In this document: positions 3 through 50,103 of the stretch, piece by piece
Position numbering within the stretch: position 1 is the first letter of the stretch
Layout of the letters: every line of letters begins with the position of its first letter
Source: an uncultured Alphaproteobacteria bacterium
GTDB lineage: Bacteria; Pseudomonadota; Alphaproteobacteria; CAAHEQ01; UBA3637
Length of the DNA: 64,000 nt
Assembly (NCBI GenBank): GCA_944391565.1
Contig: CALXUB010000004.1
Location: 46,180-110,179, forward strand
Direction: 5' to 3'
Notes under the pieces: generated by a model
What the model saw: only the letters and a program-made list of their open reading frames with translations
Told to the model about the DNA's origin: nothing
The model's database searches: none
Translations under genes and position numbers: made by a program

Positions 3-488
3 CGGATTACGCAGATGCAGCCGGATGCAACATTGTTGGATCGCGTGGCGGAATCTTTGGTGCGTCAATACATTGTGATGCGTCATGCGATTGTGTCCGA
101 TGTTGATGAGATGTTGCAACGTTGGGGCGACCGAGGCCCGATTAAATGGATGAGCTCGGATAACGTTTTTGCTGAATTTAACAGAACAACGAGTGAGTCT
201 TTTTCACGGATCCGTCAGGAACGTTTGACACGAGATGTAAATATTTTGTCAGCATATAAGCTGCAAACCGATCGTGTGAACGGCGATATTTGGGATGCCG
301 AGGTGGAGACGATTGACATGTTGCCGGAACGATCAGAACCCGTGCGGCAAACATGGCTGGTTCGCATGCAGATACAATTTTTGAATAAACAGGAAAAGTG
401 GGCAAACCGCTTGAAAAACCCGATTGGTTTTACGGTCGTGCGGTATAGTATTACGCCCAAGGGGAATACGACAACGGTTGGAGAATAA
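3..488 (+). CDS. virB8: VirB8-like T4SS inner-membrane protein, C-terminal part (5' end lies outside window)
   Basis: The reading frame is open from the window edge and there is no in-frame stop upstream of the ATG at 15. The C-terminus ...NPIGFTVVRYSITPK matches the VirB8 C-terminal NTF2-like signature NPLGF.V..Y. The gene sits immediately upstream of virB9/virB10/virB11 homologs. Confidence 0.6.
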   Translation, partial: RITQMQPDATLLDRVAESLVRQYIVMRHAIVSDVDEMLQRWGDRGPIKWMSSDNVFAEFNRTTSESFSRIRQERLTRDVNILSAYKLQTDRVNGDIWDAEVETIDMLPERSEPVRQTWLVRMQIQFLNKQEKWANRLKNPIGFTVVRYSITPKGNTTTVGE

Positions 489-608: not shown

Positions 609-2258
609 ATGTCAAAGATAAAAAATACAAAAAAATGGGTGATGATGGCAACGGTGGGCGTGTTTGCGCTGACCTCGACCATTGTTTTGGCGCAACAGGT
701 TCAACCAGGGGATGTGGATGCTGCTCAGATGAGCGATGCCATGGCTCAAACGGCGGGCAGTTTTGATGCCATTAACCTCAGCTATATCACATCGCTCGGA
801 ATGCAACAAAAAGCGTGGAACGATCCGATGCAGCATTTGGGCGAAGGGCAAATTAAGCCGGGTTATTCCCGTTATGTGTGGACACCGGATGTTGTGCTGC
901 CTCTTCGTTTGCGCGAAGGGATGATGACTTTGATTAACTTGCCGACATGGGAATTGATTGAAAAAGTCCATATCGGATCACCTGAATCTTTTGGCGGTGA
1001 AATTGCGGCACCGAACTCTTTGCTGCTTTATGCCGATCCGACTTATTTGGGTGTGGACAGCAACATGATTATCTTTGGCAGATCAGGCAACAGATATGTT
1101 TTCTATCTGCGCAGCGAAACTTATAACACGGATCGGATTACAAATGCGGTTGTGGATGTCTTAGTAGGACCCAAGTATACACCGGTTGCCGATGGCGGTA
1201 CATTGAATATTCCGAATGGTGCTTCCGTGACGGCTGGATCAACGGGAACTGCTCGTGCCGGGGCTCCCGGTTGGGCCAGTGCCGGCAGTATCGGACCCGG
1301 TGTTAATCAAAATCCGACCGTTGGACTGAATACGGCGGGTAATGCACCCAAAAATTGGTTAGAAACCATTCCTGTTGATCCGGAAAAGTTCCGTTTTGAT
1401 ATTGATGTCTTTATTCCGAACCCGAGTGATATTGAGTTAGCTCCGGAACGCGTCTGGCGAGATGATATTTTCACCTACATTGACTTTGGTAAAAAAGCTT
1501 TGACAATGACACAACGGCCGGTTGTCAATTTGATCGTTCAAGGTTCCGAAGTACCGGTTGGTTCTCGGACAAAAGGCGAACACAGTCGCTTGCTGGTTGT
1601 TGAAGGTGTGGGCGATATGGTTTTGCGCAACGGTCAGCGATTGGTTTGCTTGAAAATGCGTCGAGATCCGGCGATGGGGTTGGATCAGACGGATTACTCT
1701 TGGTCGGAAGAAAATCTCTGGCGGGCGGAACAGCCTTCTCAACAGGCACAACCGACCCCGCAGGCCTCCGGGTATGCTGCCACGACGGGAGACATGCAGG
1801 GAATGCAGCTGGTGGAACAGGTGAACATTAATCCCTATGGCGGTGTCACTGAGAACTTCTACAGCAACATGGCTCCTTTGCCTGCAAATGTCAGAAATAA
1901 TCCTCAGGCTTCTCAGGGGATTATGGATGTCATGCAGGGAATGGCTCCCGGGGTATCTGCTGCAGGTGCATCTCGGGCAGCTTTTAACGTGATGCCGGCT
2001 GACAATATTGCCATTGAGTTGGCAACAGGAACGAATATTTCTGATTTGGAGAATAAATGGGAACAAATTCGTTCCAGAAATAAAGCTTTGCTGCAAGGAT
2101 ATAATCCTTACTTCTCCGTTGATACAATGGCAGAAGGCGGTGCGCCTGAATTATTCCGTCTGCGCATTGGTCCTGTGTCTTCGGTCAGTGTCGGGGATGA
2201 TATCTGTGAACAGCTTTCTAAAAAAGGATTGATGTGCTCGGTAATCAGAACACAATAG
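609..2258 (+). CDS. virB9: VirB9/CagX-like T4SS outer-membrane core protein with extended Gly-rich linker and a Q/P/M-rich C-terminal tail ending in a SPOR-like motif
   Basis: A signal peptide (MSKIKNTKKWVMMATVGVFALTSTIVLAQQ) begins at the ATG at 609; the ORF track's start at 582 is a GTG. The N-domain pattern REGMMTLINLPTWELIEKVHIGSPESFGG...NSLLLYADPTYLGVD...GNRYVFYLRS fits VirB9. The C-domain PERVWRDDIFTYIDFGKKAL...PVVNLIVQGSEVPV...LLVVEGVGDMVLRNGQRLVCL fits VirB9. The extra ~190-aa tail ends in IAIELATG...FRLRIGPVSSVSVGDDICEQLSKKGLMC, which resembles a SPOR fold. Confidence 0.7.
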   Translation: MSKIKNTKKWVMMATVGVFALTSTIVLAQQVQPGDVDAAQMSDAMAQTAGSFDAINLSYITSLGMQQKAWNDPMQHLGEGQIKPGYSRYVWTPDVVLPLRLREGMMTLINLPTWELIEKVHIGSPESFGGEIAAPNSLLLYADPTYLGVDSNMIIFGRSGNRYVFYLRSETYNTDRITNAVVDVLVGPKYTPVADGGTLNIPNGASVTAGSTGTARAGAPGWASAGSIGPGVNQNPTVGLNTAGNAPKNWLETIPVDPEKFRFDIDVFIPNPSDIELAPERVWRDDIFTYIDFGKKALTMTQRPVVNLIVQGSEVPVGSRTKGEHSRLLVVEGVGDMVLRNGQRLVCLKMRRDPAMGLDQTDYSWSEENLWRAEQPSQQAQPTPQASGYAATTGDMQGMQLVEQVNINPYGGVTENFYSNMAPLPANVRNNPQASQGIMDVMQGMAPGVSAAGASRAAFNVMPADNIAIELATGTNISDLENKWEQIRSRNKALLQGYNPYFSVDTMAEGGAPELFRLRIGPVSSVSVGDDICEQLSKKGLMCSVIRTQ

Positions 2259-2287: not shown

Positions 2288-5200
2288 ATGGCGGACAATA
2301 TTTATCAAAGCTCTTTAGAGCAACATGTCAAGAAATCTAATCGAGTTTTTTTACTGGTTGGGATTCTTGCCCTTTTGGCGTTTTTGATCGCGTTATTTAT
2401 CTTTTCTAACGGAACAAAGCAGGCGCCTGATGAAACCATCATCGAATTTCCTGACAATCAGGGGCCTGATGTGACGGTTCCTAAAACAGATCCGCTGGAT
2501 TTGACACGACCCGTCGATGAAGGCTTGAATTTACGCGCAAGTCCGAGCAGCCTGATGTTAGAGGGCGTTGTTGTCGGCAGCTCGACTGAATCGGTGATTA
2601 CATTGCGTGCAGAAGGTGGTCCCATTCAGTTGGTCAGTTTAGATTTGGCTGAAACACAGCAGGACGGCTTTGTGATTGAAGGGGGTTGTAAAGCCGGAGA
2701 TATCATACCGCAAAACGGTTCTTGCAATCTTCGGGTTTTGTGGAATCCTGTGACGGTGCGACGGCTTCAGAATAACTTAGACATTCGTTGGAAACTAGAC
2801 GATCCGACAGCTTTCCCGCCTCCATCTGAAAAAACAATGATGATTACTTTATCGGGGCAGTCCGTAGATTCCGAACCTTGTGTGATTTGTGAAGACGTTA
2901 TTTCCGATAACGAAGCGAAAGAGCGTGAACGGCGATTGGGTGTTTTGGATCCTGAAACAGGCATGTATACCAAAGATGGTGAAATTGTCGGAATTATTGA
3001 GCCGGAAAAAATTGCCATCGCTTTGGACGGTACGCTGTTGGGTCAAATTTTAAAAGACACAAGCGAAGTCGTGGATGATCAAGGCAAAGTCATCGGTCGT
3101 ATTCTGCAGGATGATACGATTGTCAGCAAAGATCTGAAGGTTTTGGGTGCTGCTTTACCGCTTTTGCCGGTCTTGGACAGCACCGGTCAAGTAGTCGGTT
3201 CCTTGATTTCGGACGGGACAGTGGTTGATGCTAATCAAAAATTGGTCGGTTTGCCGATGGCTGATGGAACAATCGTCGGATTGGACGGACGGATTGTCGG
3301 GTCTGTCATGCCATGGGCCGTGGTGTTGAATTTGTCTTCTCAAGTCGTTGGTATTACGCAAAAAGACGGTTCTGTTATCAATATTGAAAAACAAAAAATC
3401 GGTCGAATCTTGCCGGGTGGTCTTGCCGTGAATGCGACAGGAAATATCATCGGCGGTGTTGTGCCTAAGGGATTGGCTATCGGTTATGGTTGTCACTCGC
3501 TGGGGAAAGTTCGTCCGAACGGAAAAATCATGAACGCCTTTGAGCAGCAGGTCGGTTATGTGACGATTGACGGGCTGGTTATGGATATGGGGGCTGTGCC
3601 AACCGGTATGGTTGTCCGCGAAGGTTTGGTGATTGATACGCAGGGCAACGTCATTGCTTTTGTCAATTCTGAAGGAAAAGCCATTACGGCCACAGCAGAT
3701 ATGCTGGGTTGTTTAAATCCTGACGGGACGGTTGCCGCCGGTAAAGACATTAAGGGAGCCGTTATGCCGCGCGGTCGTGTGGTCGGTTATGATTTGCAGG
3801 TTCAGGGTATCGTTTTACCTAACGGATCTGTGGTTAAACAAACGGGCGATGCGGTTGGTAAAGTTTTGTCAACCGGTTATGTTGTAGACATCAACAATAA
3901 AGTCTTTGGAGCGGTTGTGCCGAAAGGAACAGCAATTGCACAGGGCTGCGTTTTGTTGGGTATTATTGATTTGGATGGTCGTGTTTTGGATACTGCCGCC
4001 AAGCAAGTCGGAACAGTCAATCCCGATAAAAACGTTATGAATCAGGCGCGTGAGATTATCGGTGCTGTGACACCTGCCGGTGCGGTCGTGGGAATAGACG
4101 GTAAAATGATCGGCATTGTGCGTCCGGATGGTAAGGTCGTGGATAAAACAGGTCAGGTTATCGGCTGTGTCAACCCGGATGGCAGCGTTGTTAATGACAA
4201 GGGCGAAATAATCGGTCGAGTTGTTTCAATCGGTGGTGTTGTCTTGGACGAAAACGGTAATCCGACAGGCTGGACGGTTATCGGGACGGATGTCTATGAT
4301 GAAAACGGTCGCAAAGTCGGGACATTGATTGACGGTAAAGTCGTTAATGAACGGGGCGAGATTATCGGATTTATTCCACCGGACGGCATTATTGTTTCGC
4401 CGGAAGGACGCTTTTTGGGTCGCTTTACCAGCAAAACGGGTTATGCTGTGGATCAGGAAGGCAATCGCTTTGGCCGTGTTTTGCCTGATTTGACGGCGGT
4501 CAGTTTGGAAAAAAGCGAAATTATCGGTGCGTTGATTCCCGACGGCAGTCAGGTGATTAACATCAACGGTGAACGGATCGGTTCTATTCAGGCTGACGGC
4601 ACGGTGATTGATGTCAATTTGCAGCCGATGGGGATTATTCGTGCGGATGGATCTGTCGTGAATGCGGATGGTGTTATTTTGGGCGGTCTGATGCCGACCG
4701 GAACGGTTTTGGATTGGAACGGCACTGTCATCGGAAGTGTTCAGGGCAGCGGTAAGGTGATTTCGTCTTCTCAGACAGATATCGGGACTGTTCAGTTAAA
4801 CAGAACGGTGATTGATACGAACGGAAATGTGGTCGGTATGGTCTTTCCGGAAGCATCTATTCCTTTGGGTGAAAACGGTGAGCTGTTGGGCTTTTTGACC
4901 ATTAACGGAGACGTGAATAAAGACGGGAAAAAAATTGCTCATATGACGGCGGCCGGAACAATCTTTAATGAAGCCGGCGATGTGGCGGGCAGTTTGGTTC
5001 GTTTAGGGTCCGTAATGGGCAACAATAAAGAAATTCGCGGCTGGCTTTCTTTCCAAGGTAAATTGAACAATGTGGAAGGCAAACCAATCGGCTCTGTCAT
5101 GCCTGACGGATATGCCGTTAATGAAGAAGGCATGCAAATTGGGCACATCATTCCGCGTCAGACGGTCACGGATTTAAAAGGTGCCTTTGTCGGGACAGTC

Positions 5201-8200
5201 TCTGTCGACGGTCGTGTTTTGGGCCGGACTGGCGAAGTTTTAGGCGCATTCCCGTTTGACAATCGAATGATGAATGAAAACAACGTTTGGGTTGGTCGCG
5301 TTCTGCCTGCCGGATTGGCTTTGGACCCGGCCGGCGTATTCCTGGGCTACACACGTTATGACGGAGCTGTGGTTAACAACCGCGGTCAGTTGATTGGAAC
5401 GATTGCATCCGATAACCGTTTGTTGAATGCTGATGGAGAAGTGCTGGGACAATATATACCCTATGGTGCACTGGTCTTTGATCAAAAAGGAAAAGTGCTG
5501 GGTTCTATGGGCTTTGACGGCAAAGTTCGTAATGCCAAAGGCGGCGAGTTAGGCATCTTGATCGGGACGACGGTTGTGGATTCCAACAATAATGTCGTCG
5601 GTCAAGTGATGATCCCGGGCTATGCTTTGAACGAACAAGGTAAAGTGACTGGTCACATCTTCCCGAATGCAACTGTTTTGCGGAAGACAGATACCGAAAC
5701 GCTGCGTGATACCTATACAACCAGCCAGAGAATCGTCAATCGAGATCGACAGATCGTGGGTGGTTCAGTGCCTTTCGGAATTGCATTGGGATTAGATTTG
5801 GCTGTTCCGGGCAATGTCATGCCTGATGGTGGTGTAATGGGCGGAAATGCGCTTGCCGGTCGTGTTTTGACAGATGAGACTATGTATGATTTATTGGGTC
5901 GTGTATGGGGCGGCGTAATTGCTCCGAACGTTATTGTGTCAAAAGACGGTCATGTGGTCGGGTCTACATCAGTTTCTAATGCCATTAACGATATGCAGGG
6001 GACAAAGTTGGGAACGTTAATGCCTTTTGGTTCTGTTTTGACAACACAAAACGAATTGATCGGTTTGACGATGCCGACAGGTGTGGCTGTGAACGATTTT
6101 GCGAAAAAGCTGGGCTTTGTGGCTTCTGACGGTTCTGTTGTCAGTGCCGGCGGTGCTTTAGCCGGTCGGGCGATGCAGGACGGAACGATTGTTCAGCTGT
6201 TGACACGTGATGTTTATGGAACCATGCCGGATATCGGGGATGTTGTAGCCAGTGGTGTTGCAATCGGCTTGAAACCGGAATTATTCGGTCGAGCAATGCC
6301 TTCCGGAGATGTATTGAATAACTCTAATGAAACAATCGCTCAGATTTTGGATGATGCAACTTTGTTAGGCAAAGACGGTAATTTGGCCGGGGCACTGGTT
6401 GCTTGGCGCACGGCGATTGATCATCAAACAAACGTTATCGGAAATACAACCGGAGACGGAAATGTGACAAGCATTCAAGGCAATGTCATCGGTCATTTGG
6501 CTTCGAACGGAGCGGTGAAGGGGTCGCATGCGTTGAAGACACTGGGCGCGGTTATTCCGAATAATTTGGTGACGGATAACCAATGCCGAATTGTTGGTCA
6601 AGTTCGTTATGACGGACGTGTGATTGACGGTAATGGTCAAGTTGTCGCGGTGTTAAATCTGGATGGTTCTGCTGTTTCTCTGCAGGGAGCTAATGTCGGA
6701 GGCGTTGTTCAGAAAGGTTCTGTCATTGCACAAGATGGTACGCTTTTGGGGCGGACACTTCCGGATGCAGATGTCGTGGATTTAAGCGGTGTTTCCATCG
6801 GATGTTCTTTGTTCGACGGAACAGTGATTGACCATGATGGCAATGTCATTGGTCAAGTGTTAAAACGCGGCGTTGTCGTTGACGAAAATGGAAATGTGAT
6901 TGGTCGTGTGCTGCGTAATGGCCAGGTTGTTAACAGCAAAGGCGAAGTCATCGGTAAAGTACTGGGTGATGGCACGGTTGTCGATGAAAATGGCAATGTG
7001 CTGGGTCGTGTGATGGACTTGAAAAAAGAACAGTTGTTGTTTGATGAAAACGGCAAAATTACAGGGACGATGGACAAGGCTGGTCGTGTCTTTGATACAA
7101 AGGGCAAGCATTTGTTCACGGTCGGAGCTGATGGCACGCTGTATGATCCGAACGGCAACATTATCGGTCGAATTGATGATGACGGCAATATTTATGACAA
7201 TGCTGGCAACATCATCGGTAAAGTGGGTAAGGACGGAATTACATCCATGCCGAATTACTTGTATGACGCAGATGGCAATATCATCGGTTATATTAAGGAC
7301 GGTAAGGTCTTTAACACCAATGGCGAACAGATCGGTGAGGTATTGCCGGACGGCACGATTATGATTAACGGTAAACCATGGGGGCGCATTAACCCGGATG
7401 GCAGTATTACATTGTTCGGAGATGAAAGCTGTGAAAACAGTCAATATAACGGAAGCGTCACGGACAATGCCGGTAATCTGTTATACACAATCAAATGTGG
7501 CCGTGTTTATGATGCAAATGGTAATTTAATTGGGACCATTGATGAAAATGGCATTATTCGTGATCTGAACGGGAATATTATCGGAAGGATCGACGAATAC
7601 GGCAATTTATTAGATGCAAACGGCAATATTATCGGCAAGTGGACACCGGATGCAGTTGATTGCCTGCACGCGCAATACAATGGTTCTGTGCATGATAATA
7701 ACGGCAAGCTGCTTTATACCATTAAATGCGGTAAAGTTTATGATGCCAAAGGCAATCTGATCGGAACAATTGACGGCAATGGCGTCATTCGTGATTTGAA
7801 TGGCAATGTGATTGGTCGTATTGATGAGAATGGCAATTTGCTGGATCCGAATGGGAATATCATCGGAAAATGGACTTCAGATGATAATTGTATGAACGCC
7901 CAGTATAACGGAACGGTTCGGGATAATCAGGGACACGTTCTTTATACGATTAAGTGCGGGTATGTTTATGACGCTGAAGGCAACTTGATCGGAACGATCG
8001 ATGCAAATGGTGTTATTCGAGATCTGAACGGAAATGTGATCGGAACTTTACGTGATGGCGTTTTGTATGATCCAAATGGTAATCCGATTGGCAGATGGTC
8101 TCCTGAAAGCGGTGCAACGGGTTTTGTTTCCGGACGTAATTTGTTGGAAGGAACCGGTCTGGGGACTGGCGGATTGAACTTAAGCGGTCGCCGAATTGCC

Positions 8201-9655
8201 ATTGGGGATAAAGAGTTTATGGTTTTACCGGATAATTCCATTATTAACCCAATGACAGGTGCCGTGATTGGTCAGTTGAAAAACGGTGTGCCTTATTCCT
8301 TATCCAATAATTTGTTGGCTGATGAATTAGGAACCGGTACGGATCAAAAGTTCACGGGACAGGAGATTCTTCAATTCTCACCGGAACAGGCTGTTCAGAT
8401 GCGTAATTTGCTGGCAAAACGGCGTGAAAGCATGAAACAGGGGATTGGGTCTCAGTTGTCTAAAATTACTCCGGATGGACGTGTTTTGGCACGGGCCAAG
8501 AAAAAACAAGCCAAAGATTTTGGTTCGAAAAGTGTTTCAAGTTGGCCTGTGGACATGAGTCGCATGATTTTGAAAGACAAAGCGATACCAGCAGTGTTGC
8601 AGCGTTCGATTGACAGCCGTTATATGTCTGTTCCCGCATCTGCGATTGTGGAACGTCATGTTTATGCGGAAGATGGTCGAAACATTATTATTCCGGCCGG
8701 CAGTAAGTTGATTGGGTCTGTGACAGGAAGCCCGGGGACGAACCATGTGGCTAAGTTGGAGATTTCTTGGGAACGGCTCATTCGACCGGACGGCGGCTCC
8801 TTCACGCTTCAGGCGATCTCAGGTGACGCGCAGGGACGCGGTGGTGTGGCTGCATACCTGGATGAAATGTTCCTGGCTCGCTATGGCAAGCCGATTTTAC
8901 AGTCCACGATGGTTTCTGCAATCAGCTATTTGGTAGCTTCGGATGAGACAGTCACTCAAAATCAGAACTACGGGACATCTTCCCAATCTGATCGGGCTCA
9001 GGCTGCTCAAGAGGCGCGCGAGAACTTTATCGACGATATGGAAATGATTTTCAATCAATTGATTGAAGATTCTTCTACGACACCGCCGGTTGTCTTTGTG
9101 CCTTCGGGAACGCGAATGACGATTTTCGCTATGGAAGATTTGTGGCTGAGAACCGAAGAGGATGACGTAGATGACTATGAAGCTGAAATGGGCGCCGACA
9201 CAACGGAGGCCAGGACACCTGGTCAACAATACGGTATGGCTCAACGTCCTGTAGGCGGGTCACGGGGCGGAGCTGCTTCAACGGCGGAAATTTCTTCACC
9301 GGCTCAGCAGAATACATTTACCCCGACCGATGATATGTATTATGATCCGGGTTATACGGGAGACGGAGAAACACAAACCGCCATCGGCACAAATCAGGCA
9401 GACGGTTCGCAGACACTTTATGAACCGACGCCCGCATCAACTCAGTCATCTTCATCTCAAACAGCAAGTTCGACGAATGCAAATACCTCTGGCGGTCGTC
9501 CGATGACATTGGAAGAGCTGTATAATTCTCAACAGGGATTGAGTTCTTACTCATCCGATACAGATAACAACCGGATTGCGGCTCCGTTGCAACAGCGACA
9601 GCGAACAACGTCTCAGGGAGGAGGTTCTTCTTCCTCTTCCTTGGAACTGTTCTAG
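2288..9655 (+). CDS. virB10: Giant VirB10/TrbI-family protein (CagY-like): N-terminal TM anchor, ~1700-aa repetitive spacer, C-terminal VirB10 beta-barrel domain, disordered S/T/Q-rich tail
   Basis: N-terminus KKSNRVFLLVGILALLAFLIALFIF is a single TM helix as in VirB10. A C-terminal segment (nt ~8490-9160) reads IPAVLQRSIDSRYMSVPASAIVERHVYAEDGRNIIIPAGSKLIGSVTG...AKLEISWERLIRPDGGSFTLQAISGDAQGRGGVAAYLDEMF...PPVVFVPSGTRMTIFAMEDLWL, which matches the TrbI/VirB10 C-domain pattern. Between the TM helix and this domain lie hundreds of degenerate ~15-aa DG.V[VI]D.NG.V[IL]G.V units. It is a single uninterrupted 2455-codon ORF. Confidence 0.75.
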   Translation: MADNIYQSSLEQHVKKSNRVFLLVGILALLAFLIALFIFSNGTKQAPDETIIEFPDNQGPDVTVPKTDPLDLTRPVDEGLNLRASPSSLMLEGVVVGSSTESVITLRAEGGPIQLVSLDLAETQQDGFVIEGGCKAGDIIPQNGSCNLRVLWNPVTVRRLQNNLDIRWKLDDPTAFPPPSEKTMMITLSGQSVDSEPCVICEDVISDNEAKERERRLGVLDPETGMYTKDGEIVGIIEPEKIAIALDGTLLGQILKDTSEVVDDQGKVIGRILQDDTIVSKDLKVLGAALPLLPVLDSTGQVVGSLISDGTVVDANQKLVGLPMADGTIVGLDGRIVGSVMPWAVVLNLSSQVVGITQKDGSVINIEKQKIGRILPGGLAVNATGNIIGGVVPKGLAIGYGCHSLGKVRPNGKIMNAFEQQVGYVTIDGLVMDMGAVPTGMVVREGLVIDTQGNVIAFVNSEGKAITATADMLGCLNPDGTVAAGKDIKGAVMPRGRVVGYDLQVQGIVLPNGSVVKQTGDAVGKVLSTGYVVDINNKVFGAVVPKGTAIAQGCVLLGIIDLDGRVLDTAAKQVGTVNPDKNVMNQAREIIGAVTPAGAVVGIDGKMIGIVRPDGKVVDKTGQVIGCVNPDGSVVNDKGEIIGRVVSIGGVVLDENGNPTGWTVIGTDVYDENGRKVGTLIDGKVVNERGEIIGFIPPDGIIVSPEGRFLGRFTSKTGYAVDQEGNRFGRVLPDLTAVSLEKSEIIGALIPDGSQVININGERIGSIQADGTVIDVNLQPMGIIRADGSVVNADGVILGGLMPTGTVLDWNGTVIGSVQGSGKVISSSQTDIGTVQLNRTVIDTNGNVVGMVFPEASIPLGENGELLGFLTINGDVNKDGKKIAHMTAAGTIFNEAGDVAGSLVRLGSVMGNNKEIRGWLSFQGKLNNVEGKPIGSVMPDGYAVNEEGMQIGHIIPRQTVTDLKGAFVGTVSVDGRVLGRTGEVLGAFPFDNRMMNENNVWVGRVLPAGLALDPAGVFLGYTRYDGAVVNNRGQLIGTIASDNRLLNADGEVLGQYIPYGALVFDQKGKVLGSMGFDGKVRNAKGGELGILIGTTVVDSNNNVVGQVMIPGYALNEQGKVTGHIFPNATVLRKTDTETLRDTYTTSQRIVNRDRQIVGGSVPFGIALGLDLAVPGNVMPDGGVMGGNALAGRVLTDETMYDLLGRVWGGVIAPNVIVSKDGHVVGSTSVSNAINDMQGTKLGTLMPFGSVLTTQNELIGLTMPTGVAVNDFAKKLGFVASDGSVVSAGGALAGRAMQDGTIVQLLTRDVYGTMPDIGDVVASGVAIGLKPELFGRAMPSGDVLNNSNETIAQILDDATLLGKDGNLAGALVAWRTAIDHQTNVIGNTTGDGNVTSIQGNVIGHLASNGAVKGSHALKTLGAVIPNNLVTDNQCRIVGQVRYDGRVIDGNGQVVAVLNLDGSAVSLQGANVGGVVQKGSVIAQDGTLLGRTLPDADVVDLSGVSIGCSLFDGTVIDHDGNVIGQVLKRGVVVDENGNVIGRVLRNGQVVNSKGEVIGKVLGDGTVVDENGNVLGRVMDLKKEQLLFDENGKITGTMDKAGRVFDTKGKHLFTVGADGTLYDPNGNIIGRIDDDGNIYDNAGNIIGKVGKDGITSMPNYLYDADGNIIGYIKDGKVFNTNGEQIGEVLPDGTIMINGKPWGRINPDGSITLFGDESCENSQYNGSVTDNAGNLLYTIKCGRVYDANGNLIGTIDENGIIRDLNGNIIGRIDEYGNLLDANGNIIGKWTPDAVDCLHAQYNGSVHDNNGKLLYTIKCGKVYDAKGNLIGTIDGNGVIRDLNGNVIGRIDENGNLLDPNGNIIGKWTSDDNCMNAQYNGTVRDNQGHVLYTIKCGYVYDAEGNLIGTIDANGVIRDLNGNVIGTLRDGVLYDPNGNPIGRWSPESGATGFVSGRNLLEGTGLGTGGLNLSGRRIAIGDKEFMVLPDNSIINPMTGAVIGQLKNGVPYSLSNNLLADELGTGTDQKFTGQEILQFSPEQAVQMRNLLAKRRESMKQGIGSQLSKITPDGRVLARAKKKQAKDFGSKSVSSWPVDMSRMILKDKAIPAVLQRSIDSRYMSVPASAIVERHVYAEDGRNIIIPAGSKLIGSVTGSPGTNHVAKLEISWERLIRPDGGSFTLQAISGDAQGRGGVAAYLDEMFLARYGKPILQSTMVSAISYLVASDETVTQNQNYGTSSQSDRAQAAQEARENFIDDMEMIFNQLIEDSSTTPPVVFVPSGTRMTIFAMEDLWLRTEEDDVDDYEAEMGADTTEARTPGQQYGMAQRPVGGSRGGAASTAEISSPAQQNTFTPTDDMYYDPGYTGDGETQTAIGTNQADGSQTLYEPTPASTQSSSSQTASSTNANTSGGRPMTLEELYNSQQGLSSYSSDTDNNRIAAPLQQRQRTTSQGGGSSSSSLELF
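7430..8107 (+). repeat. Three tandem ~231/228/219-bp coding repeats inside virB10 (77-aa Cys-bracketed modules)
   Basis: Units start at 7430 (CENSQYNGSV...), 7661 (CLHAQYNGSV...) and 7889 (CMNAQYNGTV...). Each encodes C-x3-QYNG[ST]V-xDN-xG-x-[LV]LYTIKCG-xVYDA-xGNLIGTID-xNG[IV]IRDLNGN[IV]IG. The protein is highly conserved across units but many synonymous nucleotide differences are present. Confidence 0.85.
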
Positions 9656-9666: not shown

Positions 9667-10656
9667 ATGCCTGAGCTTTCCATATCCGAAACTTACAAAG
9701 TTTTGGAATCGGCTCTGCGACCACTGTCATACTGGTATACACAGGATAATGTGGAAGAAGTGGCCGTAGACCATCCCGGTTCTATTTGGTTGCGTTTGCG
9801 TGGGAAAAGGGCTTTTCCTTGGGTTGAGCAAATTGATCCTAAATTAACACGAGAGTATTTGAATAATATTCTTTATATTATTGCAAACAGTTATGACTAT
9901 TCTTTTGAACCGACGGAAGGAACACCCGTCGTTTATGCGACGCTGCCCGGCGGACACCGTTTTACGGGCATCAGCGGTCGAAATGTCATGTATGATAATG
10001 ACGATTTAACGGGTGGTGTGGCGTTGGCTATTCGTGTTTACAAGGAAGATGTCGGCATTGAGTTTAAAGACTTTAATTTGGAACAGGGTGAACGATTAAG
10101 GCCTTTAAGCAAGCTGGCCAATGTGGAAGATCCGGATGATCCGTATGATCGTTTGCTGTTGTCGATTCGCAAAGGTGAACATATTTTGATCAGCGGAGGA
10201 ACGGCGACAGGTAAAACAACATTTTTAAATAATATGATTAAGCTGGTGGATGAACATAAACGCATTCTGACCATTGAAGATACGCGCGAGTTGATTGTCC
10301 CGCATAAAAACCGAGTTCACATTGTTCTGCCTCGTACAGACCAAACAAATGGATTTACTTATCCGCGCGTGATTGACTTGGTCGTGCGTTTTACGCCGGA
10401 TGCAATTATCGGCGGTGAGATTTCCACATCAAATGCCAGTGCTATTTGGGAACTGATGGGATCAGGTCACGAAAACTGTTTTGCAACCATTCATGCTGAG
10501 AATCCGGATGAGGCTTATAAAGCGTTTGTCGCACGAATTATGCGGACGACACCAACCATCGATCGTGATAAAACGTTGCGGGAAATGCGTGATAAGCTGC
10601 GGGTGGTACAAATTAACCGGAATGGCAACATTCGTGCCGTGACGGCGATTACATAG
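9667..10656 (+). CDS. virB11: VirB11-family T4SS traffic ATPase
   Basis: Walker A ILISGGTATGKTTFLN is present. IEDTRELIV and RFTPDAIIGGEI motifs are typical of VirB11/TrbB hexameric ATPases. The length (329 aa) and the position after virB10 are consistent. Confidence 0.85.
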   Translation: MPELSISETYKVLESALRPLSYWYTQDNVEEVAVDHPGSIWLRLRGKRAFPWVEQIDPKLTREYLNNILYIIANSYDYSFEPTEGTPVVYATLPGGHRFTGISGRNVMYDNDDLTGGVALAIRVYKEDVGIEFKDFNLEQGERLRPLSKLANVEDPDDPYDRLLLSIRKGEHILISGGTATGKTTFLNNMIKLVDEHKRILTIEDTRELIVPHKNRVHIVLPRTDQTNGFTYPRVIDLVVRFTPDAIIGGEISTSNASAIWELMGSGHENCFATIHAENPDEAYKAFVARIMRTTPTIDRDKTLREMRDKLRVVQINRNGNIRAVTAIT

Positions 10657-15169: not shown

Positions 15170-16111
15170 TTAAAAATAAAGAGCTACGACTTTGGAAAGT
15201 TTTTTTAAGTCGTTTTCTGTTAAAACCTGCTCGGTACCGTCGGCATGTTTCAGCACACTTTTTCCCTGTCGGTCAGAAAACGTGCCGGGTAAATAAACAT
15301 TTTCTGATTTTTCCAACAATACCGGTGTTCCCTCTTCCAAAGTAGCTTCTTTTGCCAAAATATAAGTAGCCGGCCGATTGCCGAACAACAACGGTGTATT
15401 GACTTTTAATCCCGTTAATCCCTGAGCCCAGGGGAGGGCCGTTTCCAACTCGAAACTTTCGTTTTGCGCGATAAAAGAATCGTTTTCAAGCGTTGCGTTA
15501 TGAACCGTAATCTTTTTGTTTAAATTTAAAGACTTAAGCGGCAAGTCATTATAACCGCCTTTCGGATGGAAAATACCCGGTTTTCCCGTTTTTTTAAACT
15601 CTTGCAATGTTCCGGCCATATCCAGTTCGTAAATCTGAATTTGCAAAGTTTCCGCCGTAAAACCAAGTGCGTGAGCGATTTTTTTGAATTGGTCTTCCGT
15701 CACCTCACGTTGCCCCATCTCAATCCGATGATAAACGGAAAGCGTTAAACCGGCACCTTTTGCGACATCTTGCAGTGTCAGCATTTTTTCGCCGCGAATA
15801 TAGCGCAGTCCCGCCCCCAGCGTTTTTAAACCGCTTTTTTCGTTGATTTGTTTACGACGGTCTTGTTCTTTTTGCCAGGCTTGCAAAACTTCCGGCTGAG
15901 AGGTTTTCTCATAGACAAAGATGCTTTCTTTGGGACAATCCAAAAAAGATGAAATTTTATCCAATTGATTTTCATCAATGCGACGATAGCCTTTTTCGAT
16001 TTTGCTGATGGCAGACAAGCTGACACCTAAAATACCGGCGATTTCTTTCATTGTTTTACCGCGTGTCCGGCGGATCATGCGAATTTGATTCGGGAAAATA
16101 ATTTCTTCCAT
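15170..16111 (-). CDS. XRE-family transcriptional regulator with two tandem HTH domains plus ~150-aa C-terminal domain
   Basis: It has an AGAGGAG RBS. HTH 1 is KTMKEIAGILGVSLSAISKIEKGYRRI. HTH 2 is LTLQDVAKGAGLTLSVYHRIEMGQREV. It is embedded between T4SS-associated genes. Confidence 0.75.
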   Translation of the reverse strand: MEEIIFPNQIRMIRRTRGKTMKEIAGILGVSLSAISKIEKGYRRIDENQLDKISSFLDCPKESIFVYEKTSQPEVLQAWQKEQDRRKQINEKSGLKTLGAGLRYIRGEKMLTLQDVAKGAGLTLSVYHRIEMGQREVTEDQFKKIAHALGFTAETLQIQIYELDMAGTLQEFKKTGKPGIFHPKGGYNDLPLKSLNLNKKITVHNATLENDSFIAQNESFELETALPWAQGLTGLKVNTPLLFGNRPATYILAKEATLEEGTPVLLEKSENVYLPGTFSDRQGKSVLKHADGTEQVLTENDLKKLSKVVALYF

Positions 16112-16224: not shown

Positions 16225-18747
16225 TTAGAAAAAGCGTCCCGTTCGGCGGATAAAACGCCAATTACTCTTGACATATTCTTTTGCATGCTTGTTTTGTGCA
16301 CGCATTTTGTCATCCAGGCGAGAACGTGTTTGATGTGCATTTTCACGAATCTCATCAAAGACATCACGCCAATTATGCTGATCTTCTGGTTTGTTTTGCC
16401 GATTCGCCCGTTGTGTCGCATCTGATGCTTGCTGACGTGCGCGTGCCGCAGGATCTTGCTCCAGCATTCGGGTATAAATAGATGTCATCGGAATAGAAAC
16501 CAACGAAGCCGTAAATTGAACGGGCTTTTGAGCCAATGCCATTGTTTTTGTCATGTATTTATTATAAGCAATCGCGCGGGCTGATTTCTTGATCGCGTAT
16601 GAAGTCAATTTTCCGGTTGTGGTTATGGCTTTTTTGGTTGTTTTCCGAATCACATAATTAGCCACACTGTTTGCCACGATGACGGTTGCTCCAATAGTAT
16701 AAAGAAGGCCGGCTACTACAAAAGCAACAGTTGCCGCAAGCAATGTCAGTGGTGCCAGATACCAGGAAGAGGCTGTTGTTCCAACCATTTTCATGCCGAA
16801 TTGACCCAGGAAACGGCCACTGTTAAAGAAGACAAACTTAGCTCCATTGTTAATTCCTTTCCCGGTCAAATGAATACTTTTCTCGGTTAAGTTAGCTGTC
16901 GTATTTGCCGTTGCTTCAACACCGGTGCCGATTTTGTCTGCCGCTTTCGGAATGAAACGCCGCATGCCGCGCGAACGTGCTTCCAGCGTGTGGTACTTGC
17001 TGAGCCCGTGTCGAACACCCTCCGCATCCGTATAACCGCGTCGCTGTGCGTCTTTTCTTAATAAGGCCGCTTTATTTTTGGACGGTTCCCATGGCTCATC
17101 ATAGATTTCTTTCGTTAGCCCGATTCCGGCTCCGACAACGCCGACCGGTGCAAAGAGCGCTGCCACACCGCCGCCTTGAGACAGTCCGACTCCGGTCATC
17201 ATTTGAATCATTTTCGCAGTGGATGAAAGTAAGTAAAAACCAATCAGCAGCATTGCTATGCTGGCCAGAATCATGCGTCCTCCGCCGGCCCACCCGAAGC
17301 TTTCGCTTAGTCCTAGATAGTTCTGGGTAGCCAATAATTCAGCCAGTTTAGTCGCATTTGGTCCCATCAGTGCATAGAACATTTGAATCAGCAAAACGAG
17401 AATCAAAGAAATCATGAAAAAGTTGATTAAAGACGAAATTAGCATATCAAAAGCACGTTTTGTATACGAACGCGTCGATGGAAAAGCCGCCGTCACGATA
17501 AAGAAAGGCAATAATAACAGAACAATGCCGATTCTGAAGAACGAATCCACTAAAAAGAACGGGAAAACAGCGGATAGCAAGAAAAACGCGGCAATAATAA
17601 ACCAGGAGGCCAACCAAACGGGAATATCAGGCAATCTGATGATTGGTGTCAGACGTGTCGGGAAAGATTTAGCCCCTTGCGTTTGAGACATACACATTAA
17701 ATATTGTCCGGCAACGGTCGGTGGAACGGTAATTTGATACGTACTTTGAACAATACACAGCAAGGAATCGCGCATAGAGGTGGGAATAGCTCTGTCTTGC
17801 GCATTAGCTTGATATTGCAAAACACGAGAAACGCGTGCGTCCGTCGGTGTCGAAGATGTCGCTGTCAGATTTTGGCAATAAGTAGGTTGAGGCGGCTGTG
17901 TCCCTAAAACGGCACGATAGATTTGTACATTCACTTTCGGTGTGTTCGGATTGGGGTCTATGTTGGCCGAAATAGAACTCATGGCTTGCGTTAGACCGGC
18001 CGAAAAAGTAAAAATCGGTGTGATGAAAGTATTTAAAACATCTTTGTAAGGTGTTGCCAAAACGGCTCCTAAAAATATCAGTAATAAAATGCGTTTCAAA
18101 ACATCCGTAAAATACGAACCGATGTCACCCATGCCCCATGATAAAAACAACCGAAGTGTTCGAAAAACCAACCAAAACATGCCACCAATGGATAAAAGCA
18201 TCAAAGGCAAATGCTGTTCTTCGATCTGTTTGTAAAATGTCGTAATGACTTTATCCATGCTTTCAATGATTAAATAAACGATATCACAGGTCCAGCAGTC
18301 CTCCTGATATTCCAATAAAAGCTGACGCGGTGTCGGACAAACTTTCGAACCACGACCCAATCGTTCTTTAATCGCTTTTTGGTAATCTTCCCGAGCTTTT
18401 TCCAGGTCTTCCTGTTGTTCGCGGGTTCGGTCATTTAAGGGGATACGTTCAACTTCTTCAATAATTTGCTGCGCTTCCAAAAAGCGTTCCTGTGAGATCT
18501 GATAGCTTTGAGCCAATGCACTGCCGGCAGCCATCCATAAAAACGAAGAAAAAACAAGGCCTAATAAAAAGAGATGTCTTGTCTTTTTTAAGCTGATTGT
18601 TTTATAAAGACCAAGCCCCAGCATCAAAATGATCAAAGGCAGCGCAACAAACCAAATATAGGGTAAGTAAGACGTGCCCGGCAAAAAATAAACCAGGATC
18701 AACAGCGGAATAAGCAGAAGAGTTGTTGCAAAATGCTTTAAAGTCAT
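16225..18747 (-). CDS. Polytopic membrane protein, VirB6-like paralog 3 (840 aa) with long hydrophilic C-terminal extension
   Basis: It has many TM helices. It shares the CWTCDIVY motif and the FFLVDSFFRIGIVLLLLPFFIVTAAFP block with the two upstream paralogs. Its ~300-aa basic C-terminal tail resembles the extended VirB6 proteins of Rickettsiales rvh systems. Assignment to the VirB6 family is by architecture and context only. Confidence 0.5.
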   Translation of the reverse strand: MTLKHFATTLLLIPLLILVYFLPGTSYLPYIWFVALPLIILMLGLGLYKTISLKKTRHLFLLGLVFSSFLWMAAGSALAQSYQISQERFLEAQQIIEEVERIPLNDRTREQQEDLEKAREDYQKAIKERLGRGSKVCPTPRQLLLEYQEDCWTCDIVYLIIESMDKVITTFYKQIEEQHLPLMLLSIGGMFWLVFRTLRLFLSWGMGDIGSYFTDVLKRILLLIFLGAVLATPYKDVLNTFITPIFTFSAGLTQAMSSISANIDPNPNTPKVNVQIYRAVLGTQPPQPTYCQNLTATSSTPTDARVSRVLQYQANAQDRAIPTSMRDSLLCIVQSTYQITVPPTVAGQYLMCMSQTQGAKSFPTRLTPIIRLPDIPVWLASWFIIAAFFLLSAVFPFFLVDSFFRIGIVLLLLPFFIVTAAFPSTRSYTKRAFDMLISSLINFFMISLILVLLIQMFYALMGPNATKLAELLATQNYLGLSESFGWAGGGRMILASIAMLLIGFYLLSSTAKMIQMMTGVGLSQGGGVAALFAPVGVVGAGIGLTKEIYDEPWEPSKNKAALLRKDAQRRGYTDAEGVRHGLSKYHTLEARSRGMRRFIPKAADKIGTGVEATANTTANLTEKSIHLTGKGINNGAKFVFFNSGRFLGQFGMKMVGTTASSWYLAPLTLLAATVAFVVAGLLYTIGATVIVANSVANYVIRKTTKKAITTTGKLTSYAIKKSARAIAYNKYMTKTMALAQKPVQFTASLVSIPMTSIYTRMLEQDPAARARQQASDATQRANRQNKPEDQHNWRDVFDEIRENAHQTRSRLDDKMRAQNKHAKEYVKSNWRFIRRTGRFF

Positions 18748-49422: not shown

Positions 49423-49605
49423 AAATACCTCCTTTTAAAAGATAAAGGAGATTAGAGTTTTGTCAATAAAGTTCATTAAGAGAAGCTATTTTAAAAAAAA
49501 TGTATCATTTAAACATTCAAGTTTGAGTTGATATATTTTATTTGTTTTTTATTAAAATGCATGCTAAAATATACACCTATTTATTTTAAAGAAAGGAATT
49601 AAAAA

Positions 49606-49737
49606 ATGAAAAAATTAGCTTTAACAGCTTGTGGTGGTAGTCGTGGGTATGTTGGAAATCAAAAAGTTTGTGAGAATGATTATTTTCTAGGAGTTATTTC
49701 AATTTCTGAATTATTCTCTCCTTGCACAAAAAAGTAA
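49606..49737 (+). CDS. Small predicted lipopeptide (43 aa)
   Basis: It has an AAAGGA RBS. It encodes MKKLALTACGGSRGYVGNQKVCENDYFLGVISISELFSPCTKK with lipobox LTAC. A hairpin terminator follows. It is below the ORF-track size cutoff. Confidence 0.35.
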   Translation: MKKLALTACGGSRGYVGNQKVCENDYFLGVISISELFSPCTKK

Positions 49738-49750
49738 ATTTGAATAATAC

Positions 49751-49788
49751 GAAAAGACCTTTGCTAAAGTGCAAAGGTCTTTTTTTAT
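49751..49788 (+). terminator. Rho-independent terminator
   Basis: The hairpin AAAGACCTTTGCtaaagtGCAAAGGTCTTT is followed by TTTTTTT. Confidence 0.7.
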
Positions 49789-49913
49789 GTTTTAAAAGTG
49801 TTAATGATATGTAAGTATGTATTTGTGATACATAAAAATAAAAAAACTTTATCTTTATGTACGTCAATGTTGTGGAATAGTATTTAAAGAGACAAAGAAA
49901 ATGAACTTTATAT

Positions 49914-49966: not shown

Positions 49967-50103
49967 GTATAATGAAAATAATTTTTATTTTCAACGTGTT
50001 ATTTTTTTAAAAAATAAAATTGCCCAATTTTTGCCCAATTAAAAAATAAATTTACTTTTTCTTATAAAAAATTATAATATCGTTCTCAAAAGAAGGAGAC
50101 TTT

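What the first reader, a model, noticed from the sequence alone, without database searches (positions are those of the whole stretch)
2288..9655. CagY-like giant VirB10 (2455 aa) with ~1700-residue repeat-built periplasmic spacer and an extra disordered C-terminal tail
Typical VirB10/TrbI proteins are 350-480 aa. Here a normal N-terminal TM anchor and a recognisable C-terminal VirB10 barrel domain are separated by ~5 kb encoding hundreds of degenerate DG.V[VI]D.NG.V[IL]G.V units plus three 77-aa Cys-bracketed modules. The only well-known precedent is H. pylori CagY, whose repeat regions tune T4SS function and immune recognition. The protein also has a ~165-aa S/T/Q/G-rich tail after the barrel domain, which could be surface exposed.
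Basis: partly seen in the sequence, partly recalled or inferred. Interest (0 to 1): 0.85.

Follow-up and report, generated by a model that had tools for sequence, protein, structure and literature searches.

The report
Giant VirB10 with fixed β-hairpin array
This 2455-residue gene is a real type IV secretion VirB10 protein whose periplasmic linker has been replaced by about 100 rigid β-hairpin repeats; unlike the variable repeats of H. pylori CagY, the array keeps almost the same length across a large family in uncultured Alphaproteobacteria.

Summary

The spacer is not "hundreds" of units. It holds about 100 hairpins of 17 aa, belonging to the β-flower/DUF3659 family (Pfam 375 bits). AlphaFold2 models them confidently as one rigid body (pTM 0.73). 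The array follows an ASH/PapD-type Ig domain.

The CagY analogy holds only for size. The DNA repeats are degenerate (61-78% identity). The 1476-aa core array keeps its length (median 1473 aa) in relatives down to about 30% identity. Only the three 77-aa Cys modules vary between species (0-3 copies).

At least 139 related protein clusters share this architecture, in two size classes (about 1400-1650 and 1890-2480 aa). The closest normal-sized relatives have the Ig domain, TrbI domain and tail but no hairpins.

My best reading is a fixed-geometry periplasmic scaffold built into VirB10. I found no publication describing it.

The parts
2288..2407 (+). VirB10 N-terminal cytoplasmic tail (aa 1-19) and single transmembrane helix (aa ~20-40)
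   Evidence: Kyte-Doolittle windows above 1.8 occur only at aa 16-26 start positions. The N-terminus MxxNxxLSSSEQYxKKSNR is conserved in the family consensus.
2408..2527 (+). Pro/Asp/Thr-rich linker (aa 41-80), predicted disordered
   Evidence: Composition P15 D15 T12 %. Mean pLDDT is below 50 for the first three 10-residue blocks of model 2 (model residues 1-30, aa 41-70) and 57 for the fourth.
2528..2866 (+). ASH/PapD/MSP-type Ig-like β-sandwich (aa 81-193) with conserved Cys134/Cys146
   Evidence: AF2 pLDDT ~90. Foldseek: HYDIN PapD-like 2e6j TMt 0.71, CEP192 ASH 6fvi, MSP 1m1s. Sequence hits to ASH/Cep192_D4 are sub-threshold only, E 0.009-0.05.
2867..2959 (+). CxxC (Cys198/201) and short helix (aa 204-217) joining the Ig domain to the repeats
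   Evidence: The Cys columns are at least 90% conserved.
2960..7387 (+). Core β-hairpin array, aa 225-1700 (1476 aa, about 87 units of 17 aa); three conserved Cys pairs 73 residues apart (402/475, 554/627, 1433/1506)
   Evidence: 17-aa periodicity. Self-HMM units. Pfam Bflower_2/Bflower/DUF3659. AF2 gives regular alternating 3- and 5-residue strands, pLDDT ~90, pTM 0.73. Length in 97 homologues: median 1473, 10th-90th percentile 1461-1542.
7421..8113 (+). Three tandem 77-aa Cys-bracketed modules (aa 1712-1942). Each has 8 strands (4 hairpins) with YD-like motifs and a Cys pair 22 residues apart
   Evidence: DNA family D3, 66-73% identity. Sequences. DSSP shows 8 strands per module. Best Bflower_2 stretch at aa 1798-1883, plus RHS/YD weak hits. 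Copy number is 0-3 among homologues, giving zone lengths of about 36, 92-109, 164-171 and 237-251 aa.
8114..8542 (+). Linker (aa 1943-2085) with two more hairpins and a long helix (aa ~2032-2054) leading into the barrel
   Evidence: AF2 model 1, H543-565. Length conserved at 119-150 aa.
8543..9157 (+). VirB10/TrbI β-barrel domain (aa 2086-2290), including the helix-loop-helix 'antenna' (aa 2194-2217 and 2235-2264; nt 8867-9079)
9158..9655 (+). S/T/G/Q-rich low-complexity tail (aa 2291-2455) ending in the conserved C-terminal motif ...SLELF, plus the stop codon
   Evidence: Composition. Tail length is 38-161 aa in homologues. 90 of 98 family members end in [LMIY][FY]. No Pfam hit.
15..488 (+). 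VirB8 (C-terminal part; the gene is cut by the window start; 254 aa in L001/L011)
   Evidence: Pfam VirB8.
609..2258 (+). Long VirB9/CagX-family protein (549 aa)
   Evidence: Pfam CagX 46.7 bits, TIGR02781 VirB9. Gene called at this start in 10 assemblies.
9667..10656 (+). VirB11 ATPase (329 aa)
   Evidence: TIGR02788 VirB11 E 6.5e-40, Pfam T2SSE.

Best explanation
The gene encodes the VirB10 subunit of a chromosomal type IV secretion system in an uncultured alphaproteobacterium.

Shown:
- Like every VirB10, it is anchored in the inner membrane by one N-terminal helix. It ends in the TrbI β-barrel with the helix-loop-helix antenna, which in solved systems forms the outer-membrane cap of the core complex in multiple copies (13-17 in solved systems).
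- The usual ~150-residue periplasmic linker is replaced by an Ig-like domain, about 87 β-hairpins of 17 aa of the β-flower/YD-like type, and three 4-hairpin modules stapled by Cys pairs.
- The hairpin array is predicted to be rigid and is under strong purifying selection.
- Its length is held nearly constant across the family.

Inferred:
- The array is a fixed-geometry structural element located in the periplasm. By topology it lies between the inner-membrane anchor and the barrel under the outer membrane.
- In the oligomeric core complex the copies together would build a megadalton β-structure (a ring, cage or stalk wall). This would enlarge the machine in cis, playing the role that extra subunits play in the Cag and Dot/Icm systems.
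- The conserved even number of cysteines suggests periplasmic disulfide staples.
- The low-complexity tail acts as a flexible tether that delivers a conserved C-terminal ...[LM]F peptide to a docking site.
- The family arose from an 'Ig + TrbI + tail' VirB10 by insertion and early expansion of hairpins, after which the array froze. Only the terminal Cys modules still change in copy number between species.
For: VirB10 identity.

Operon context: 58-aa lipoprotein, VirB8, VirB9, VirB10, VirB11, conserved in relatives whose VirB10 is 56% (L016) and 32% (L017) identical.

Hairpin family and periodicity.

AF2 models: pLDDT 86 and pTM 0.73 for aa 41-880; pLDDT ~90 for the hairpins of aa 1490-1940.

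Population data: 11 sequences, 56 segregating sites, 50 synonymous, no indel, pN/pS 0.036 overall and 0.021 in the array.

Length conservation of the 1476-aa array: median 1473, 10th-90th percentile 1461-1542, in homologues down to ~30% identity. Alignment occupancy is ~1.0 over nearly all of aa 250-1690 (0.7-0.9 in the far and mid groups at aa 1601-1700).

Cysteines: 16 Cys in 8 regularly spaced pairs, with the Cys columns conserved in at least 90% of sequences.

Degenerate DNA repeats.

Family size and size classes.

Precursor-like architecture (ASH Ig + TrbI + tail, no hairpins) in the next-closest TrbI relatives P0293, P0300 and P0316.

Conserved C-terminal motif.
Against: - No experimental data exist, and the organism is known only from MAGs.
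I therefore cannot distinguish closed β-flowers in series from a continuous solenoid or from a curved sheet.
- An array of ~100 hairpins could be much longer than a normal periplasm if it is extended. A periplasmic location therefore requires a compact or circumferential arrangement.
- VirB4, VirD4, VirB2 and VirB3 were not found in the 64-kb window or in the ~4.3 kb of upstream sequence recovered in L011. Completeness of the machine is unproven.
- Oligomeric state was not modelled.
- The link to the hairpin-less relatives rests on domain order plus weak N-terminal similarity (E 0.007-0.009).
Confidence: 0.5

Rival explanations
1. CagY/DotG-like tuning device. The repeat region is host- or environment-exposed and changes length by intragenic recombination, modulating secretion or evading recognition.
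For: CagY and DotG are precedents: both are repeat-expanded VirB10 homologues with variable repeat number, even within species (PMC5954226, PMC3585145, PMC6761968). The 77-aa Cys modules do differ in copy number (0-3) between species.
Against: No indel in 11 conspecific sequences from independent samples. pN/pS is 0.021 in the array. DNA repeats are only 61-78% identical, and TRF reports no repeat array. The core array length is conserved to within about 10 aa at 30% identity. By topology the region lies between the inner-membrane anchor and the barrel under the outer membrane.
Confidence: 0.07
2. Ligand-binding array. The hairpins act like cell-wall- or carbohydrate-binding β-hairpin repeats (choline-binding, CROP, cell-wall-binding repeats). 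They would anchor the machine to peptidoglycan or bind a glycan or lipid.
For: There are local Foldseek similarities to TcdA CROPs (7u1z), the choline-binding proteins CbpE and LytC (2bib, 2ww5) and YD shells. [quoted passage not shown] The adjacent VirB9 has a sub-threshold SPOR-like C-terminus.
Against: TM-scores are 0.06-0.10, so only the hairpin motif is shared. The array is poor in the aromatic residues typical of choline or sugar sites (G16 V13 I8 L8 D8 %). An avidity binder does not need a strictly conserved number of units.
Confidence: 0.2
3. Extracellular fibre or conduit. The array is threaded outside the cell and acts as an adhesin or as a pilus substitute carried by VirB10 itself.
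For: No VirB2 or VirB5 pilin genes were recognised near the locus. The rod-like rigidity of the model and its size exceed what a periplasm needs. There are reports that CagY repeats are surface exposed (cited in PMC6761968).
Against: The chain would have to cross the outer membrane twice. Conserved Cys pairs and purifying selection fit a protected periplasmic structure. Absence of pilin genes within a 64-kb window is weak evidence, because the T4SS genes are scattered.
Confidence: 0.1
4. Artefact: a misassembled repeat region or a decaying pseudogene.
For: One related contig (L018) has the gene split into three ORFs of 1266 + 932 + 448 aa.
Against: The length is identical in 10 independent assemblies. 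More than 100 homologous clusters have intact 1400-2480-aa ORFs. Purifying selection is strong. The repeats are too divergent to collapse.
Confidence: 0.01

Closest known systems
Canonical VirB10/TrbI (A. tumefaciens VirB10, pKM101 TraF, R388 TrwE, Xanthomonas VirB10, H. pylori ComB10)
   Different: Five to seven times longer. The linker is replaced by an Ig domain plus about 100 β-hairpins. There is a 165-aa tail with a conserved C-terminal motif. It scores below the NCBIfam equivalog cutoffs (103.5 against 220 bits).
H. pylori CagY (VirB10 homologue, ~1900 aa)
   Different: The repeats are unrelated: β-hairpins of the β-flower family here. The DNA repeats are degenerate, and there is no length variation within the species. 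The array length is conserved across the family. No cag-specific partners were detected. This protein is larger than CagY.
Legionella/Coxiella DotG (IcmE), type IVB
   Same: A VirB10-like C-terminal domain preceded by a long repeat region thought to line the periplasmic channel.
   Different: DotG repeats are pentapeptide repeats that vary in number between and within species through recombination (PMC6761968). NF033900 scores 20.7 against a cutoff of 750. The genomic context here is type IVA (VirB8/9/11).
β-flower / DUF3659 hairpin repeat proteins (Pfam PF21784, PF21785, PF12396; clan CL0395)
   Same: Strong sequence membership (375, 155 and 108 bits). A [DN]xxG hairpin-tip motif. The 77-aa modules have 8 strands, as in the 4-fold β-flower.
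   Different: The β-flowers described so far are small single domains of 8-12 strands, known from prediction only (PMC10584680). Here about 100 hairpins are concatenated inside a secretion-system subunit, and AF2 treats at least 40 of them as one rigid body.
Rickettsiales vir homologue (rvh) T4SS
   Same: Chromosomal and scattered T4SS genes. A duplicated VirB8. The order VirB8 paralogue, VirB7-like lipoprotein, VirB8, VirB9, VirB10, VirB11, as in R. typhi (PMC4676284). Several tandem VirB6-like paralogues.
   Different: No virD4 follows virB11. No second VirB9 was detectable. The nearest named relatives of the TrbI domain are Microvirga VirB10s, not Rickettsiales. No hairpin-expanded RvhB10 came up in my literature searches. 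No phylogeny was done.

Membership tests
VirB10/TrbI family | C-terminal TrbI domain scoring above Pfam's gathering cutoff | tested here: met
   PF03743, 105 bits against a cutoff of 35, aa 2094-2287, covering profile positions 2-188 of 188.
VirB10/TrbI family | β-barrel fold with inserted helix-loop-helix antenna, as in solved core complexes | tested here: met
VirB10/TrbI family | Bitopic topology: short cytoplasmic N-terminus and a single TM helix | tested here: met
   The only strongly hydrophobic segment is at aa ~20-40.
VirB10/TrbI family | Encoded with VirB8, VirB9 and VirB11 | tested here: met
VirB10/TrbI family | NCBIfam equivalog-level score (T4SS_VirB10 NF038091, cutoff 220) | tested here: not met
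   103.5 bits. This makes it a family member rather than an equivalog of characterised VirB10s.
VirB10/TrbI family | Assembles in multiple copies into an envelope-spanning core complex with VirB7 and VirB9 | not testable with these tools
   No multimer modelling or experiment was available.
CagY | Repeat regions made of near-identical DNA direct repeats that recombine in frame | tested here: not met
   Repeats are 61-78% identical and TRF reports no repeat array. No indel in 11 sequences.
CagY | Part of the cag island with Cag-specific partners (CagT, CagM, Cag3) | tested here: not met
   Pfam and NCBIfam detect no Cag-specific proteins among the neighbours, only the general CagX/VirB9 family.
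DotG/IcmE | Pentapeptide-repeat middle region and a type IVB context; NF033900 cutoff 750 | tested here: not met
   20.7 bits, restricted to the TrbI part. No Pentapeptide Pfam hit.
β-flower clan (PF21784/PF21785) | Sequence match above the gathering cutoff, with the [DNEQ]xxG hairpin-tip motif | tested here: met
   Bflower_2 375 bits against 38 (18 stretches). Bflower 155 bits against 25. Units read DGxVVDxxGxxIG. The motif is defined in PMC10584680.
β-flower clan (PF21784/PF21785) | Hairpins close into a shallow 4-, 5- or 6-fold symmetric barrel | tested here: inconclusive
   Each 77-aa module has 8 strands, and Cys pairs 73 residues apart would fit 4-hairpin closures. A pTM of 0.73 over 840 residues indicates a rigid continuous body.
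Rhs/YD-repeat shell proteins | YD repeats forming a closed spiral β-shell | tested here: not met
   There are weak sequence hits: RHS_repeat 30.5 bits with no single stretch significant, and TIGR01643 26.8 bits. Foldseek finds Rhs and teneurin, but with TM 0.06-0.09.
rvh-type T4SS (Rickettsiales) | Duplicated VirB8 and multiple VirB6 paralogues, with scattered gene islets | tested here: met
   The 204-aa VirB8 paralogue has BLASTP E 7e-17 to VirB8. Three VirB6-like paralogues match each other at 1e-35, 7e-19 and 1e-9. The T4SS genes lie in at least two divergent operons.
rvh-type T4SS (Rickettsiales) | virD4 following virB11; duplicated VirB9 and VirB4; phylogenetic affiliation with Rickettsiales components | tested here: inconclusive
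   No VirD4 lies downstream. The 546-aa upstream protein shows no similarity to VirB9. VirB4 was not seen. The nearest named TrbI relatives are Microvirga. No tree was built.

The most novel reading that the evidence does not exclude
The oligomerised, length-locked array of about 87 hairpins (plus 0-3 terminal β-flower modules) forms a self-contained megadalton β-structure, either a tube or a cage. It would substitute in cis for the accessory core-complex proteins of expanded T4SSs, or even for a pilus. That would define a new architectural class of type IV secretion machine in a widespread, uncultured alphaproteobacterial lineage, with the array acting as a molecular ruler for the machine's dimensions. 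It would also be the first biological context and role for the β-flower hairpin fold.
Probability: 0.2. Interest if true: 0.85.

Novelty: new variant of a known kind. Interest (0 to 1): 0.62.

Why it matters
VirB10 is the only T4SS subunit that spans both membranes, and it is thought to transmit energy and gate the outer-membrane pore. Until now, two independent repeat expansions were known (CagY and DotG). Both are variable and are interpreted as host-interaction or tuning devices.

This family is a third, larger expansion, and it behaves in the opposite way. It is about 100 rigid β-hairpins whose number has been frozen across deep divergence. That makes it a natural experiment on how far the envelope-spanning scaffold of a secretion machine can be elaborated in cis.

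It also gives a concrete structural context to the β-flower/DUF3659 repeat, a fold so far known only from prediction. And it flags an abundant, uncultured alphaproteobacterial lineage that invests about 7.4 kb of a small genome in one secretion-system subunit.

If the array turns out to be an ordinary flexible spacer, the finding reduces to a curiosity of domain accretion.

Tried and rejected
- Foldseek against AFDB50, to test whether the hairpins close into β-flowers: the library was not available. Model coordinates are not exposed in the sandbox, so the hairpin geometry stays unresolved.
- Search for normal-length close relatives. P0145 (448 aa, 44% identity) looked like one, but it is the last piece of a giant gene split into three ORFs.
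- Test of whether the 546-aa protein upstream of the VirB8 paralogue is a second VirB9, as in rvh. There is no detectable similarity.
- Test of whether the window's minus-strand genes of 280, 512, 483 and 200 aa correspond to the similarly sized genes upstream of the L017 operon. There were no BLASTP hits, so the size resemblance was a coincidence.
- Taxonomic placement through LigA. Only 'MAG: Alphaproteobacteria bacterium' names were returned. The genome-contig scan gave the same label.
- Literature searches for VirB10 + DUF3659, for β-flower in a T4SS context, and for RF32 + T4SS. No paper turned up.
- NCBIfam and Pfam on nine neighbouring ORFs, to find VirB4, VirD4, VirB2 or VirB3. None were found.
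- The exact-sequence lookup of the 2455-aa protein reported 'not in the collection', although L010 encodes an identical protein. I treated this as an index gap, not as evidence.
Full report
OBSERVATION

The window contains one uninterrupted ORF at 2288-9655 (+) of 2455 codons with an ATG start. It is preceded by a VirB8 gene (15-488, cut by the window edge) and a 549-aa VirB9/CagX-family gene (609-2258). It is followed by VirB11 (9667-10656). The rest of the window carries housekeeping genes (LigA, RecN, RNase J, PBP5, glycogen synthase), so the locus is chromosomal.

IS IT REAL?

VirB11 occurs verbatim on more than 20 contigs from independent samples. In the ten loci fetched (L001-L010) the neighbouring gene is always 7368 nt. 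These copies have no indel, 14-23 nucleotide differences and 0-3 amino-acid differences from the window.

Across the 11 sequences there are 56 segregating sites, 50 of them synonymous. pN/pS is 0.036 for the gene and 0.021 for the repeat array. The DNA repeats are only 61-78% identical and always in frame, with a base period of 51 nt. Tandem Repeats Finder reports no repeat array, only a two-copy 10-nt match at 8820-8840. Collapse or expansion during assembly is therefore not a concern, and the gene is clearly functional.

ANATOMY

1. aa 1-40: a short cytoplasmic tail and the only strongly hydrophobic helix.
2. aa 41-80: a Pro/Asp/Thr-rich segment, disordered in the model.
AF2 models it at pLDDT ~90. 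Foldseek matches ASH/PapD/MSP-type Ig domains (HYDIN 2e6j TMt 0.71, CEP192 6fvi). Sequence hits to ASH/Cep192_D4 are sub-threshold.
4. aa 194-224: a CxxC motif and a helix.
5. aa 225-1700: the core repeat array.
   - The unit is 17 aa, with consensus DGxVVDxxGxxIGxVxP. Autocorrelation peaks fall at 17, 34 and 51.
- A self-trained HMM finds 52 clear units between aa 242 and 1939. The region has room for about 87 units, and about 100 counting the modules.
   - Pfam assigns the repeats to Bflower_2 (375 bits), Bflower (155) and DUF3659 (108). These are the β-hairpin 'β-flower' clan defined from AlphaFold models by Durairaj et al. 2023 (PMC10584680).
6. aa 1712-1942: three 77-aa modules, each with a Cys pair 22 residues apart and YD-like motifs. 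In the model each has 8 strands, as in a 4-fold β-flower.
7. aa 1943-2085: a linker with a long helix.
9. aa 2291-2455: an S/T/G/Q-rich tail.

The 16 cysteines form eight regularly spaced pairs, and their alignment columns are at least 90% conserved. This fits periplasmic disulfides.

STRUCTURE OF THE ARRAY

With a 59-sequence alignment, AF2 models aa 41-880 at mean pLDDT 86.4 and pTM 0.73. Such a pTM for 840 residues means the roughly 38 hairpins covered by this model are predicted as one rigid body, not as beads on a string.

The C-terminal tile (aa 1490-2300) has pLDDT ~90 in the hairpins but pTM 0.35. That is consistent with flexible joints around the modules, the linker and the barrel.

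No solved structure resembles the array globally:
- Foldseek finds only local hairpin similarity to Rhs/teneurin YD shells, TcdA CROPs and choline-binding repeats, at TM 0.06-0.10.

I could not inspect coordinates, and AFDB was unavailable. Whether the hairpins form serial closed flowers or a continuous solenoid remains open.

THE FAMILY

A full-length search returned 139 clusters, all with Bflower + TrbI architecture, at 1376-2484 aa and 24-63% identity. Where named, they are MAG proteins of 'Alphaproteobacteria bacterium' labelled hypothetical, DUF3659 or TrbI/VirB10.

An exhaustive HMMER scan with the TrbI domain gave the following:
- 4519 hits in total, 102 of them at E up to 1e-30.
- The closest tier consists only of giants or fragments of giants.
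- The giants fall into two size classes: about 1890-2410 aa and about 1407-1650 aa.
- The next tier is 500-690-aa VirB10s.

Named examples in that next tier are from Microvirga. Three members of that tier (P0293, P0300, P0316) have an ASH/HYDIN Ig domain, a TrbI domain and a tail, and no hairpins. They show weak collinear similarity to the query's N-terminus. This is the giant's architecture minus the array, and it suggests origin by insertion and expansion of hairpins into the linker.

THE KEY RESULT

In a MAFFT alignment of the query with 97 homologues, almost the whole of aa 250-1690 has occupancy near 1.0 in all identity bands; it dips to 0.7-0.9 in the more distant groups at aa 1601-1700.

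The 1476-aa core array measures 1473 aa at the median of the homologues, with a 10th-90th percentile range of 1461-1542. This holds even at about 30% identity.

Variation is confined to two places:
- The module zone, which is about 36, 92-109, 164-171 or 237-251 aa long, corresponding to 0, 1, 2 or 3 modules.
- The tail, which is 38-161 aa long.

The tail nevertheless ends in a conserved aromatic C-terminus: 90 of 98 sequences end in [LMIY][FY], preceded by a P[VL]xPK-like motif.

COMPARISON WITH KNOWN EXPANDED VirB10s

cagY carries extensive near-identical repeats that recombine in frame during infection and alter T4SS function (PMC5954226, PMC3585145). DotG has a variable number of pentapeptide repeats, recombines frequently and differs in length even within species (PMC6761968).

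The present protein shares with both only the principle of a repeat-expanded linker before a TrbI barrel. Its repeats are of a different fold family, its DNA offers no recombination substrate, and its array is length-locked. The CagY-like functional reading is not supported, and CagY is not the only precedent.

CONTEXT

Upstream of the window (L011) lie a 204-aa divergent VirB8 paralogue (BLASTP 7e-17 to VirB8) and a 58-aa lipoprotein with an LVAC lipobox in the VirB7 position. That lipoprotein is 64% identical in a relative whose VirB10 is only 32% identical.

The core gene order (lipoprotein, VirB8, long VirB9, giant VirB10, VirB11) recurs between housekeeping genes in distant relatives (L016, L017).

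On the opposite strand of the window lie three mutually related polytopic VirB6-like proteins of 478, 445 and 840 aa.

The duplicated VirB8, the multiple VirB6 paralogues and the gene order recall the Rickettsiales rvh system (PMC4676284). However, no virD4 follows virB11, no second VirB9 was detectable, and the TrbI domain's nearest named relatives are not rickettsial. I leave rvh membership open. VirB4 and VirD4 were not found in the sequence available.

MECHANISM

Shown: VirB10 topology, domain identities, rigidity in the prediction, purifying selection and length conservation.

Inferred: the array lies in the periplasm, and in the oligomeric core complex it builds a fixed-geometry β-scaffold (a ring, cage or stalk wall). 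This enlarges the machine in cis, analogous to what accessory subunits do in the Cag and Dot/Icm systems. I also infer disulfide staples, and a flexible tail that delivers a conserved C-terminal peptide to a docking site. I put this at about 0.5.

Rivals:
- A ligand- or cell-wall-binding array (0.2).
- An extracellular fibre (0.1).
- A CagY-like variable tuning region (0.07).
- An artefact (0.01).

NOVELTY

The proteins are present in public MAG annotations, but I found no paper linking VirB10 to β-flower/DUF3659 repeats or describing this family. I rate it a new variant of a known kind. It is the largest of the three repeat-expanded VirB10 homologues compared here (CagY, DotG, this family) and the only length-locked one.

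Noticed in passing
window 16225-18747 (-), 18750-20087 (-), 21081-22517 (-): Three polytopic (8-10 TM-like segments) proteins of 840, 445 and 478 aa are paralogues of each other (BLASTP 1e-35, 7e-19, 1e-9). Two of them hit TrbL/VirB6 weakly. Tandem VirB6 proliferation is a hallmark of the Rickettsiales rvh system.
   Followed up: partly
L011 2502-3116 and 3209-3385 (upstream of the window start): A 204-aa divergent VirB8 paralogue, followed by a 58-aa lipoprotein (MKNILIFAGIAVTALLVAC...) in the VirB7 position. The lipoprotein is 64% identical in a relative whose VirB10 is only 32% identical.
   Followed up: partly
window 609-2258 (+): VirB9 is also oversized (549 aa against about 290 typically). 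Its last ~80 residues give a sub-threshold SPOR (peptidoglycan-binding) hit: E 0.0037, 18 bits against a cutoff of 21.
   Followed up: partly
window ~48000-64000: Probable prophage or integrated element. GC drops to 0.35 at 48-52 kb. It carries a tyrosine integrase (50502-51602, -), an HTH repressor-like gene (55134-55607, -), a DNA methylase (59380-60774) and a gpA-type large terminase (61582-63486).
   Followed up: no
L018 1310-9347: In one related contig the giant VirB10 is split into three consecutive ORFs: 1266 aa (Bflower), 932 aa, and 448 aa (TrbI). This could be a pseudogene, sequencing frameshifts, or a genuinely split variant.
   Followed up: no
proteins P0293, P0300, P0316: The closest hairpin-less VirB10 relatives (514-627 aa) carry an ASH/HYDIN-type Ig domain before the TrbI domain. 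They appear to start with lipoprotein signal peptides (e.g. ...LLTACGK...MLAACGK) rather than a TM anchor.
   Followed up: partly
window 15170-16111 (-): A 313-aa protein with two Cro/C1-type HTH domains sits between the VirB6-like genes and four unannotated genes (280, 512, 483 and 200 aa) that face the virB11 end. It may be a regulator of the T4SS genes.
   Followed up: no
window 2288-9652 versus L010 2622-9986: The exact-sequence lookup said the 2455-aa protein is not in the collection, yet L010 encodes an identical protein. This is probably an indexing gap for very long products.
   Followed up: no
window aa 388-417 versus 539-568 of the VirB10 (nt ~3449-3991): Within the array there is a higher-order ~151-153-aa (9-hairpin) resemblance: '...GGVVPKGLAIGYGC...' against '...GAVVPKGTAIAQGC...'. 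In aa 230-900 there is also a 51-aa (3-hairpin) autocorrelation peak stronger than the 34-aa one. Both hint at a supra-hairpin structural period.
   Followed up: partly
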